Positions 46,107 through 48,671 of a stretch of 64,000 nt of DNA are shown here, one piece after another (the stretch's first letter is position 1; each line of letters starts with the position of its first letter). The stretch lies in NCBI RefSeq assembly GCF_009914755.1, contig NC_060925.1; one strand, written 5' to 3'. The translations under genes and the position numbers were made by a program. The notes under the pieces are model-generated. The model saw only the letters and a program-made list of their open reading frames with translations. It was not told where the DNA came from and did no database searches. Source of the stretch: the human T2T-CHM13v2.0 reference genome, Homo sapiens.

Positions 46107-48671
46107 TGATATGGTTTGGCTGTGTTGCCACTCAAATATCATCTTAAATTCCCACATGTTGTTGGGGGGATCCAGTGGGAGGTAATTTAATCATGGAGGC
46201 AGGTTTTTCCCATACTGTTCTTGTGTGATAGTGAATAAGTCTCACAAGATCTGAGGGTTTCAGAGGGGAGTTTCCCGCACAAATTCTCTTCTCTTGTCTG
46301 ATGCCATGTGAGATGTGCCTTTCACCTTCCACCATGATTGTGAGGCCTCCCCAGCCATGTGGAATGTAAGTCCATTAAACTTCTTTCTTTTGTAAATTGC
46401 CCAGTCTCAGGTATATCTTTATCAGCAGCATGAAAACAGATTAATACAGTAAATTGGTACCAGTAGAGTGGGGCACTGCCGAAAAGATACCTGAAAATGT
46501 GGAAGTGACTTTGGAACTGGGTGACAGGCAGAGTTTAAAACAGTTTGGAGGCCAGGCATGGTGGCTCATGCCTGTAATCCCAGCACTTTGGGAGGCTGAG
46601 GCAGGCAGATCACCTGAGATCAGGAGTTCGAGACCAGCCGGACCAACATGGAGAAACCCTGTCTCTACTAAAAATACAAAAATTAGCTGGGTGTGGTGGT
46701 GCATACCTGTAATCCCAGATACTCAGGAGGCTGTGGCAGAAGAATTGCTTGAACCCGGAAAGCAGAGATTGCGGTGAGCTGAGATCGCACCATTGCACTC
46801 CAGCCTGGGCAATAAGAGTGAAACTGTATCTCAAAAAGAAAAGAAAAAAAAAACAGTTTGGAGGGCTCAGAAGAAGACAGAAAAATGTGGGAAAGTTTGG
46901 AACTCCCTAGAAACTTGTTGAATGGCTTTGCTTAAAATGCTGATAATGATATGGACAATGAAATCAAGGCTGAGGTGGTCTCAGGTGGAGATGAGGAACT
47001 TGTTAGCAACCGCAGCAAAGGTGACTTTTACTCTGTTTTAGCAAAGAGACTGGTGGCATTTTGCCTTGCTCTAGAGATTTGTGGAACTTTGAACTTGAGA
47101 GAGATGGTTTAGGGTATCTGGCAGAAGAAATTTCTAAGCAGCAAAGCATTCAAGAGGCGACTTGGGTGCTGTTAAAGGCATTCAGTTTTAAAAGGAAAGC
47201 AGAGCATAAAAGTTTGGAAAATTTACAGCCTGACAATGAGGTAGAAAAGAAAATCCCATTTTCTGGGGAGAATTCAAGCAGGCTGCAGAAATTTGCATAA
47301 GTAACAAGAAGTCAAATGTTATCCCCAAGACAATGGTGAAAATGTTTCCAGGGTGTTTCAGAGGTCTTCATAGCAGCCCCTCCCATCACAGGCCTGGAGG
47401 CCTTGGAAAGGAAAAATGGTTTCATGGGTCAGGCCCCAGGTCCCCGTGCTGTGTGCAGCCTAGGGACTTGGTGCCCTGCTCCAGCCACGGCTGAAAGGGG
47501 CCAATGCAGAGGTCGAGCCATGGTTTCAGAGGGTGCAAGCCCCAAGCCTTGGCAGCTTCCACGTGGTGTTGAGCCTGCGAGTGCACCGAAGTCAAGAATT
47601 GGGGTTTGAGAACGTCTGCCTAGATTTCAGAGGATGTATGGAAATGCCTGGATGACCAGGCAGAAGTTTGCTGCAGGGGCGAGGCCCTCATGGAAAACCT
47701 CTGCTAGGGTAGTGTGGAAGGGAAATGTGGGGTCGGAGCCCCCACACAGAGTCCCTACTGGGGCACTGCCTAGTGGAGCTGTGAGAAGAGGGCCACTGTC
47801 CTCCAGACCCCAGCGTGGTAGATCCACTGACAGCTTGCACCATGTGCCTGGAAATGTCACAGACACTCAAAGCCAGCCCATGAAAGCAGCCAGGAGGGAG
47901 GCTGTACCCTGCAAAGCCACGGGGTGGAGCTGCCCAAGACCATGGGAACCCACCTCTTGCATCAGCATGACCCGGATGTGAGACATGCAGTCAAAGGAGA
48001 TAATTTTGGAGCTTTAAGATTTGACTGCCCTGCTGGATTTTGGACTTACCTGGGGCCTGTAGCCCCTTTGTTTTGGCCAATTTCTCCCATTTGGAATGGC
48101 TGTATTTACCCAGTGCCTGTACCCCCATTGTATCTAGAAAGTAACTAACTTGCTCTTGATTTTATAAGCTCATAGGCAGAAGGGACTTGCTTTGTCTCAG
48201 ATGAGACTTTGGACTGTGGACTTGTGAGTTAATGCTGAAATGAGTTAAGACCCTGGGGGACTATTGGGAAGGCATGATTGGTTTTGAAATGTGAGGATAT
48301 GAGATTTGGGAGGGGCAAGGGGCAAAATTATATGGTTTGGCTGCGTTCCCCACCCAAATCTCATCTTAAATTCCCACATGTTGTGAGAGGAACCCGGTGG
48401 GAGGTAATTGAATCATGGGGTCAGATTTTTCCCCTGCTGTTCTTGTGACAGTGAATAAGTCTCACATGATCTGGTGGTTTTAAAAGGGGAGTTTCCCTGC
48501 ACAAGTTCTCTTCTCTTGTCTGCCACCATGTGAGATGTGACTTTCACCTTCCAGCATGATTGTGAGGCCTCCCCAGCCACATAGAACTGTAAGTCCTTTA
48601 AACTTCTTTCTTTTGTAAATTGCCCAGTCTTGGGTATGTCTTTATCAGCAGCATGAAAATGGACTAATACA
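46107..48671 (+). mobile_element. Full-length THE1A MaLR provirus (5' LTR 46107-46448, internal region with AluS ~46550-46853, 3' LTR 48328-48671)
   Basis: Two direct-repeat LTRs (tgatatggtttggctg...taataca), THE1-int sequence between them, 5-bp TSD CTGCC (46102-46106 and 48672-48676). Confidence 0.93.

What the first reader, a model, noticed from the sequence alone, without database searches (positions are those of the whole stretch)
46107..48671. Sense THE1A provirus configured as a candidate oocyte/DUX4-responsive alternative promoter for FMN2
Seen: both LTRs keep the MaLR internal donor GTAAGT (46366-46371; 48589-48594), a DUX4-type motif (TAATTTAATCA 46183-46193; TAATTGAATCA 48405-48415) and a kB-like GGGAGTTTCC (46266; 48487). 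The two LTRs are asymmetric. The 3' LTR keeps the TATA-like TTTTAAAA (~48478-48485) but its ATTAAA poly(A) signal is mutated to TTTAAA; the 5' LTR shows the reverse. That favours initiation and read-through from the 3' LTR toward FMN2, 12 kb downstream. Established: MaLR LTRs drive chimeric first exons in oocytes, THE1 elements are DUX4 targets and THE1B drives CSF1R in Hodgkin lymphoma; formin-2 is required for oocyte spindle positioning. Inference: donor 48589 joined to acceptor 60944 gives an LTR-initiated FMN2 transcript.
Basis: partly seen in the sequence, partly recalled or inferred. Interest (0 to 1): 0.75.

Follow-up and report, generated by a model that had tools for sequence, protein, structure and literature searches.

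The report
Old THE1B retroelement upstream of FMN2
This is an ordinary, decayed THE1-type retroelement about 12.5 kb upstream of FMN2 whose two LTRs do bind DUX4 in published data, but nothing I could check shows it starting FMN2 transcripts.

Summary
A full-length MaLR provirus lies at 46107-48671: two LTRs (342 and 343 bp, 11.2% apart), a 5-bp target duplication CTGCC, and an Alu inside.

The motifs are family defaults, not features of this copy. Among 39 close relatives elsewhere in the genome, 29 keep the DUX4 consensus, 27 the kB-like site, 32 the GTRAGT donor and 35 a poly(A) signal. The TATA/poly(A) asymmetry amounts to a few substitutions between LTRs that differ at 38 of 339 aligned sites.

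The THE1A label is probably wrong. The hg19 repeat labels in Young et al. 2013 Table S1 read THE1B and THE1B-int.

That table lists DUX4 ChIP-seq peaks on both LTRs in DUX4-transduced myoblasts, so binding is already in print. Local RNA is not significantly induced there (FDR 0.93 and 0.68). FMN2 is absent from their 238 DUX4-activated alternative promoters and from the 1,056 human-oocyte LTR-initiated transcripts of Brind'Amour 2018. It is also absent from the Hodgkin, oocyte-isoform, embryo and chimera supplements I searched.

The acceptor at 60944 is one of 13 comparable sites in the interval.

Verdict: known repeat, DUX4-bound, FMN2 promoter role unsupported. Low interest.

The parts
46102..46106 (+). 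5' copy of the 5-bp target-site duplication CTGCC
   Evidence: flank print; read directly
46107..46448 (+). 5' LTR (342 bp, TG...CA ends). It keeps the DUX4 site, the kB-like site, the GTAAGT donor and ATTAAA. The TATA-like box is lost (GTTTCAGA).
   Evidence: Under the DUX4 ChIP-seq peak hg19 chr1:240239918-240240322 (= window about 45977-46381), labelled THE1B.
46183..46193 (+). DUX4 consensus site TAATTTAATCA in the 5' LTR
   Evidence: The 17-mer 46180-46196 coincides with the 'best DUX4 motif' of peak 1 in Young 2013 Table S1.
46449..48328 (+). Internal region of the element. It is decayed: the longest + strand ATG ORF is 115 aa. It is interrupted by an Alu and ends in a purine-rich tract (about 48308-48327) just before the 3' LTR.
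   Evidence: labelled THE1B-int in Young 2013 Table S1
46550..46849 (+). Alu inserted into the internal region, flanked by a direct repeat AAAACAGTTTGGAGG (46537-46551 and 46850-64; the ends are ambiguous with the A-tail)
   Evidence: (families D1, D5, D6)
48275..48285 (-). Second, weaker DUX4-like site (AAAACCAATCA on the minus strand) in the internal region, 44 bp before the 3' LTR
   Evidence: The 17-mer 48272-48288 coincides exactly with the 'best DUX4 motif' of peak 2.
48329..48671 (+). 3' LTR (343 bp). It keeps the DUX4 site (48405-48415), TTTTAAAA (48478-48485), the kB-like site (48487-48496) and the GTAAGT donor (48589-48594). The poly(A) signal has decayed to TTTAAA (48597-48602).
   Evidence: Under the DUX4 ChIP-seq peak hg19 chr1:240242162-240242517 (= window about 48221-48576).
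48672..48676 (+). 3' copy of the target-site duplication CTGCC
60920..60944 (+). It is not annotated as an exon boundary and is one of 13 comparable sites in the interval.
60950..63250 (+). CpG island holding the annotated FMN2 start (61207) and exon 1. This is the ordinary FMN2 promoter.
   Evidence: GC 0.57-0.73, CpG o/e 0.62-1.00 in the 500-bp windows starting 60750 to 62750; hub annotation

Best explanation
The stretch is an old, non-autonomous ERVL-MaLR provirus of the THE1 group (THE1B by published RepeatMasker labels). It inserted once, in the same orientation as FMN2, 12.5-15 kb upstream of the FMN2 CpG-island promoter. It has since decayed and taken up an Alu.

Its LTRs still carry the regulatory modules that the whole family inherited: a DUX4 double-homeobox site, a TATA-like box, a kB-like site, a splice donor just before the poly(A) signal, and the poly(A) signal itself.

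Because the DUX4 sites survive, DUX4 occupies both LTRs when it is expressed; this is shown in myoblasts. As with about 99% of DUX4-bound THE1B copies, binding there does not yield a significant transcript, and no read joins either LTR to FMN2.

FMN2 is transcribed from its own CpG-island promoter. The element is best read as a DUX4-bound but transcriptionally near-silent relic, not as an FMN2 promoter.

Shown: the structure, the family-wide nature of the motifs, DUX4 occupancy, and absence from the lists of LTR-gene chimeras that I searched. Inferred: silence in tissues not covered, namely cleavage embryos, testis and primary tumours.
For: Structure:
- Paired LTRs, 301/339 aligned bases identical, K2P 0.1225, 5-bp TSD.
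- 9,704 first-look candidates in the own genome; the 39 scored matches elsewhere in the genome are 87-90% identical over the full LTR.
- Internal ORFs are fragmented: 8 ORFs of 50 aa or more, longest on the + strand 115 aa. The one intact THE1 ORF cited by Young 2013 has 464 aa.

Family defaults in 39 relatives:
- DUX4 consensus 29/39.
- kB consensus 27/39.
- GTRAGT 32/39.
- ATTAAA or AATAAA 35/39.
- TTTTAAAA present in 21/39.

DUX4 occupancy: two peaks, heights 102 and 60, labelled THE1B and THE1B-int. One offset (hg19 minus window = 240,193,941) puts both 'best motif' 17-mers exactly on DUX4-like 17-mers at 46180-46196 and 48272-48288. The peak centres are 2,220 bp apart, against an LTR spacing of 2,222 bp.

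No promoter use:
- FDR 0.929 and 0.679 for local RNA.
- FMN2 is absent from Table S4, which lists 238 promoters including 11 THE1B or THE1B-int rows.
- FMN2/Fmn2 is absent from all 7 supplement files of Brind'Amour 2018. No coordinate beginning 24023, 24024 or 24025 occurs in the human LIT table.
- FMN2 is absent from the supplements of PMC13233917, PMC6558280, PMC10616205 and PMC12999487.
- No paper pairs FMN2 with THE1A or THE1B (0 each). FMN2 with LTR gives 4 papers, 3 listed, none on this topic by title.

Base rates: 29.6% of THE1B copies are DUX4-bound and 1.0% of the bound ones activated. For THE1A the figures are 17.7% and 2.2%.
Against: - The log2 fold change is given as 'Inf' for both peaks. 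That means some reads with DUX4 and none without, so weak DUX4-dependent transcription near the LTRs cannot be ruled out.
- Table S4 needs a single 100-nt read joining the peak to an annotated exon. The authors note that it missed HEY1 for that reason. It would also miss a junction to the unannotated 60944 site.
- The oocyte list is an assembly-based call from short reads, and low-level starts would be missed.
- I saw no CAGE, no embryo or testis data at this locus, and no GENCODE models.
- The 39 relatives were those most like the 3' LTR, so their motif retention is biased upward.
- The hg19-to-window mapping is my arithmetic, not a liftover.
Confidence: 0.85

Rival explanations
1. One reading: the 3' LTR starts transcription about 25-30 nt after TTTTAAAA. 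It reads past its decayed poly(A) signal and splices from 48588 to 60944 or to FMN2 exon 2. This would give an LTR-driven FMN2 mRNA in oocytes, cleavage embryos, DUX4-expressing cells or Hodgkin cells.
For: - All needed sequence parts are present and in the sense orientation.
- DUX4 binds the 3' LTR.
- THE1 LTRs do this at other genes: THE1B-HEY1, THE1B-CSF1R and TNFRSF11A, and THE1A-initiated oocyte transcripts at IL23R/C1orf141, CNTNAP4 and AFAP1.
Against: - No significant RNA at the peak and no FMN2-linking reads in two DUX4-transduced myoblast lines.
- Not among 1,056 human-oocyte LITs.
- FMN2 is absent from the Hodgkin RACE-seq supplements and from three isoform or chimera resources.
- RefSeq has no exon upstream of 61207 (hub table).
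- 22 AATAAA/ATTAAA signals lie between the LTR and FMN2, the first at 48749. There are 12 other acceptor-like sites at least as good by my crude measure.
- The hypothetical leader would carry 8 upstream ATGs.
- The prior per copy is about 1% or less (1.0-2.2% of bound copies activated; 7 THE1A LITs against 4,233 THE1A copies).
Confidence: 0.05
2. The DUX4-bound LTR pair acts as a DUX4-dependent enhancer or chromatin-opening site. It would raise transcription from the normal FMN2 CpG-island promoter in the cleavage embryo or testis, without any chimeric transcript.
For: - Two DUX4 peaks lie 12.5-15 kb from the promoter.
- Peak 2 holds two motifs, a class with higher occupancy and activation in Young 2013.
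Against: - No data seen on FMN2 induction by DUX4. FMN2 and DUX4 co-occur in only 2 papers, both unrelated.
- 63,795 DUX4 peaks exist genome-wide and about 1.2% show activation, so proximity alone says little.
Confidence: 0.07
3. The LTRs give only short, weak, unspliced or locally terminated DUX4-dependent transcripts (element RNA or read-through ending at nearby poly(A) signals) that never reach FMN2.
For: - 'Inf' fold change with non-significant FDR at both peaks.
- AATAAA lies at 48749, 78 nt past the 3' LTR.
- The 5' LTR keeps ATTAAA.
Against: The read counts behind 'Inf' were not seen and may be one or two reads of noise.
Confidence: 0.2

Closest known systems
THE1B-HEY1 and other DUX4-activated MaLR promoters (Young et al. 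2013, PMC3836709; passages and Tables S1 and S4 seen)
   Same: - Same LTR family, with a sense orientation upstream of a gene.
- The same DUX4 site is bound in the same ChIP-seq experiment.
   Different: At HEY1, RT-PCR and 5' RACE show a DUX4-dependent chimeric transcript. Here local RNA is not significant and no read links the peaks to FMN2.
THE1B LTR promoter of CSF1R in classical Hodgkin lymphoma (as described in Edginton-White et al. 2018, PMC6558280; passages seen. The original Lamprecht 2010 paper was not seen.)
   Same: THE1B LTR upstream of and sense to a gene. The published LTR has an NF-kB motif, and here a kB-consensus match lies at the family position.
   Different: - No evidence that this copy is active in Hodgkin cells. 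FMN2 is absent from that paper's 2 supplement files.
- NF-kB activation alone did not even switch on the CSF1R LTR.
Human-oocyte LTR-initiated transcripts (Brind'Amour et al. 2018, PMC6102241; passages and Supplementary Data 3 searched)
   Same: THE1 LTRs are among the MaLR start sites in human oocytes. Seven THE1A copies start transcripts, some into genes.
   Different: This locus and FMN2 are not in the list of 1,056.
Rodent MT (MaLR) oocyte promoters, e.g. the MTC-driven Dicer isoform (as cited in PMC6102241)
   Same: MaLR LTR with a consensus splice donor that can make chimeric first exons.
   Different: - A different, rodent-only subfamily.
- Fmn2 is absent from the mouse and rat LIT tables too (the search ignores letter case).

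Membership tests
ERVL-MaLR provirus, THE1 group | Two direct LTRs of about 350 bp with TG...CA ends | tested here: met
   LTRs of 342 and 343 bp, 88.8% identical at aligned sites. The 5' LTR runs TGATATGG...AATACA. The second base of the 3' LTR is changed or lost.
ERVL-MaLR provirus, THE1 group | 5-bp target-site duplication | tested here: met
   CTGCC at 46102-46106 and 48672-48676
ERVL-MaLR provirus, THE1 group | Membership of a family of thousands of copies in the same genome | tested here: met
   9,704 first-look candidates. The 39 scored matches elsewhere in the genome are 87-90% identical over positions 1-6 to 341-343 of 343.
ERVL-MaLR provirus, THE1 group | Internal region with one gag-like ORF and no pol or env | tested here: inconclusive
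   Internal length is 1,880 bp including a roughly 300-bp Alu, too short for pol. Only ORF fragments remain, longest on the + strand 115 aa. I did not compare them with a gag sequence.
   The hg19 repeat labels carried in Young 2013 Table S1 are THE1B (5' LTR motif) and THE1B-int.
DUX4-bound LTR | Match to the DUX4 double-homeobox consensus TAAYBBAATCA | tested here: met
   One exact match in each LTR
DUX4-bound LTR | DUX4 occupancy by ChIP-seq | tested here: met
   Published peaks of height 102 and 60 over both LTRs, by my coordinate mapping. The cells were myoblasts over-expressing DUX4.
LTR-derived alternative promoter (chimeric LTR-gene transcript) | Transcription start inside the LTR in some cell type | tested here: not met
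   RNA near the peaks is not significant (FDR 0.929 and 0.679). The locus is not among the human-oocyte LITs. No CAGE or 5' RACE data could be seen.
LTR-derived alternative promoter (chimeric LTR-gene transcript) | Spliced junction from the LTR donor to an exon of the gene | tested here: not met
   FMN2 is absent from 238 linking-read promoters and from the supplements searched. RefSeq has no upstream exon (hub table).

The most novel reading that the evidence does not exclude
In a setting that none of the searched datasets covers well, such as the human 4-8-cell embryo or male germ cells where DUX4 is naturally expressed, the DUX4-occupied 3' LTR might act on FMN2. It keeps its TATA-like box and donor but has lost its poly(A) signal. 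It could fire and either splice into FMN2 or boost the FMN2 CpG-island promoter, giving a primate-specific, DUX4-timed pulse of formin-2.
Probability: 0.05. Interest if true: 0.4.

Novelty: already known. Interest (0 to 1): 0.12.

Why it matters
If the LTR did drive FMN2, it would be one more case of a primate-specific retroelement wiring a gene needed for oocyte spindle positioning into a germline or embryonic programme. The role of formin-2 in oocytes is recalled, not checked here. That would be useful but not surprising, since hundreds of such LTR-gene chimeras are catalogued.

As it stands, the locus shows the opposite and commoner situation. A THE1B copy can keep every family motif, and even bind DUX4, without acting as a promoter. 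That is the fate of about 99% of bound copies in Young et al. 2013. Motif inventory alone is therefore a weak predictor of LTR co-option.

Tried and rejected
- No RepeatMasker, Dfam or MaxEnt was at hand. The subfamily rests on published labels. Acceptor strength rests on a crude measure of my own: pyrimidines at -20..-5, Y at -3, and no AG in the 14 nt upstream.
- I considered that the TATA/poly(A) asymmetry is a meaningful 'configuration' and rejected it. The LTRs differ at 38 of 339 aligned sites. At roughly 5-6% change per LTR per site, an 8-nt or 6-nt box is hit in a third or more of copies by my estimate. One of the 39 relatives shows the same TTTAAA, and 18 of 39 lack TTTTAAAA.
- I considered 60944 a special acceptor and rejected it: 13 of 983 AGs in the interval and 58 of 4,793 in the window do as well, and 60422 does better.
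- Searches that found nothing:
  - FMN2+THE1A.
  - FMN2+THE1B.
  - FMN2+LTR+oocyte+chimeric.
  - FMN2+DUX4: 2 unrelated papers.
  - FMN2+LTR: 4 papers, 3 listed, unrelated by title.
  - One search was set too loosely (2 of 3 terms) and said nothing about FMN2.
- Supplement limits:
  - Young 2013 files 13, 15, 16, 18 and 19 were not searched.
  - File 14 is held cut.
  - A gene's absence from a supplement held as text is weak evidence where tables list only selected genes.
- No primate genomes were available, so orthology and age by synteny were not tested.
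Full report
**What is in the sequence**

The stretch 46107-48671 is a complete LTR element.
- Two direct repeats of 342 bp (46107-46448) and 343 bp (48329-48671) align with 301 matches, 38 mismatches (24 transitions, 14 transversions) and 7 gap columns. That gives p = 0.112 and K2P = 0.1225.
- The repeat finder sees the same pair as blocks 84-92% identical, spaced 2220-2223 bp apart.
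- The 5' LTR begins TG and both LTRs end CA.
- The five bases CTGCC flank the element on both sides, at 46102-46106 and 48672-48676. This is the 5-bp duplication expected of one retroviral-type integration.
- The 1,880-bp internal part holds an Alu at about 46550-46849, with its own flanking repeat.
- The internal part ends in a purine-rich tract just before the 3' LTR.
- Only ORF fragments remain: 8 ORFs of 50 aa or more, the longest on the + strand 115 aa.
- The LTRs have 1 and 2 CpGs left.
- With a recalled neutral rate of about 1.2-2.2 x 10^-9 per site per year, the LTR divergence gives very roughly 28-50 million years. This is my inference. It fits the ~40-75 Myr that Young et al. give for another THE1B and the ~50 Myr in the abstract of PMC11805910 (listing only).

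Every coordinate checks out; the list is in the observation check. The question is whether the motifs say anything about this copy.

The LTR belongs to a very large family. The own-genome search had 9,704 first-look candidates. The 39 scored matches elsewhere in the genome are 87-90% identical over the whole LTR.

I fetched those 39 and tallied the letters at the five motif windows:

| Motif | State in the 39 relatives |
|---|---|
| DUX4 site | consensus kept in 29 (the exact TAATTGAATCA in 24) |
| kB-like site | consensus kept in 27 (the exact GGGAGTTTCC in 23) |
| Donor | GT kept in 35, GTRAGT in 32 (ACT\|GTAAGT in 26) |
| Poly(A) signal | ATTAAA or AATAAA in 35 (TTTAAA in 1) |
| TATA-like box | TTTTAAAA present in 21 |

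These copies were picked for likeness to the 3' LTR, so the fractions are biased upward. Even so, they show that each motif is the inherited default of the family.

The two strict DUX4 matches are the only ones in the window: 2 found, 0.94 expected, and 26 of 100 shuffles reach 2. They are duplicates of one ancestral site.

The asymmetry between the LTRs comes to a few substitutions between LTRs that differ at 11% of sites. I read it as decay, not configuration.

**The proposed splice**

The donor is good, as it is in most copies.

The acceptor at 60944 has 13 of 16 pyrimidines, C at -3 and G at +1. By the same crude measure, 13 of the 983 AGs between the donor and the FMN2 ATG do as well. So do 58 of 4,793 in the window, and 60422 does better.

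Twenty-two AATAAA/ATTAAA signals lie between the LTR and the FMN2 start, the first at 48749.

The site lies at the 5' edge of the FMN2 CpG island, about 60950-63250. RefSeq annotates nothing upstream of 61207 (hub table).

**Published data at this very locus**

Young et al. 2013 (PMC3836709) list 63,795 DUX4 ChIP-seq peaks from DUX4-transduced myoblasts. Their Table S1 holds two relevant rows:

| hg19 peak | Height | Motifs | Repeat label | log2 FC | FDR |
|---|---|---|---|---|---|
| chr1:240239918-240240322 | 102 | 1 | THE1B | Inf | 0.929 |
| chr1:240242162-240242517 | 60 | 2 | THE1B-int | Inf | 0.679 |

I had no liftover, but the mapping is tight.
- The offset is 240,193,941.
- It puts the first 'best motif' (240240121-137) on 46180-46196, the 5' LTR site with 3-nt flanks.
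- It puts the second (240242213-229) on 48272-48288, a DUX4-like 17-mer on the minus strand.
- The peak centres are 2,220 bp apart, against 2,222 for the LTRs.
- The canonical 3' LTR site sits at the centre of peak 2.
- The offset puts the FMN2 start at hg19 about 240,255,148. I recall the hg19 start as about 240,255,180.

This gives three results.
1. Both LTRs bind DUX4.
2. The repeat labels say THE1B, not THE1A.
3. RNA within 1 kb is not significantly induced.

Their Table S4 lists 238 DUX4-activated alternative promoters, defined by reads joining a peak to a gene. It includes entries with 1+1 reads and 11 THE1B or THE1B-int rows. It has no FMN2 and no coordinate from this locus. That table can miss cases with intervening or unannotated exons, as it did HEY1.

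Their Table 1 gives the base rates: THE1B has 22,433 copies, 29.6% bound, and 1.0% of the bound ones activated. THE1A has 4,233 copies, 17.7% bound and 2.2% activated.

**Oocytes and other settings**

Brind'Amour et al. 2018 (PMC6102241) assembled 1,056 LTR-initiated transcripts in human GV/MII oocytes. Of these, 36% start in a MaLR, mostly THE1 or MLT1, and 639 genes have an LTR-initiated spliced isoform.
- FMN2/Fmn2 occurs in none of the 7 supplement files, which cover human, mouse and rat lists and placental DMRs.
- The human table (1,063 rows, gene names given) has no coordinate beginning 24023, 24024 or 24025.
- Only 7 rows of that table start in a THE1A.

FMN2 is also absent from the held supplements of four other resources:
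- A single-oocyte full-length isoform study (PMC13233917; 6 files).
- The Hodgkin-lymphoma THE1 RACE-seq study (PMC6558280; 2 files).
- The long-read human preimplantation transcriptome (PMC10616205; 8 files).
- A TE-gene chimera atlas (PMC12999487; 4 files).

For these four I saw only listings or passages plus the supplement searches. Tables that list selected genes make such absences weak evidence.

The Hodgkin paper confirms the background facts. A THE1B LTR drives CSF1R and that LTR has an NF-kB motif. NF-kB activation switches on hundreds of THE1 LTRs, but in a cell-type-specific way.

No paper in the library pairs FMN2 with THE1A, THE1B, or LTR in a relevant way.

**Reading**

The element is a catalogued, decayed THE1B provirus. 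Its family-inherited DUX4 sites are still bound when DUX4 is present. Like nearly all bound copies, it shows no promoter output, and no link to FMN2 appears in any resource I could search.

FMN2 has an ordinary CpG-island promoter.

I put 0.85 on this reading. The alternatives are:
- About 0.05 on a real LTR-FMN2 chimeric transcript in some unsampled setting.
- About 0.07 on an enhancer-type effect.
- About 0.2 on weak local DUX4-dependent transcripts. This is compatible with the main reading, which is why the figures do not sum to 1.

**What remains open**

I could not see cleavage-embryo, testis or CAGE data for this locus, or GENCODE models. I could not run RepeatMasker or use primate alignments. 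Several supplement files went unsearched (see Tried and rejected).

Noticed in passing
window 61005-61436: An ATG at 61005-61007 is in frame with the annotated FMN2 start codon (61434), with no stop between them (143 codons). It lies 202 bp upstream of the annotated transcription start. Any transcript starting further upstream would carry a possible N-terminal extension. Open frames are common in such GC-rich sequence, so this may mean nothing.
   Followed up: partly
window 48272-48288 (minus strand): A DUX4-like 17-mer (core AAAACCAATCA) lies in the internal region, 44 bp before the 3' LTR. By my mapping it is what Young 2013 Table S1 scores as the 'best' motif of the second peak, above the canonical LTR site. 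That explains the THE1B-int label and the count of two motifs.
   Followed up: partly
window 46550-46849 and about 48845-49150: One Alu sits inside the provirus with a roughly 13-15-bp target duplication. A second Alu lies about 170 bp past the 3' LTR (repeat families D1, D5 and D6).
   Followed up: partly
It is not annotated.
   Followed up: no
window 30293-30303 and 44414-44424: Palindromic kB-consensus matches (GGGAAATCCC / GGGGATTTCC) lie outside the provirus. The kB pattern has 18 matches in the window against 9.1 expected.
   Followed up: no
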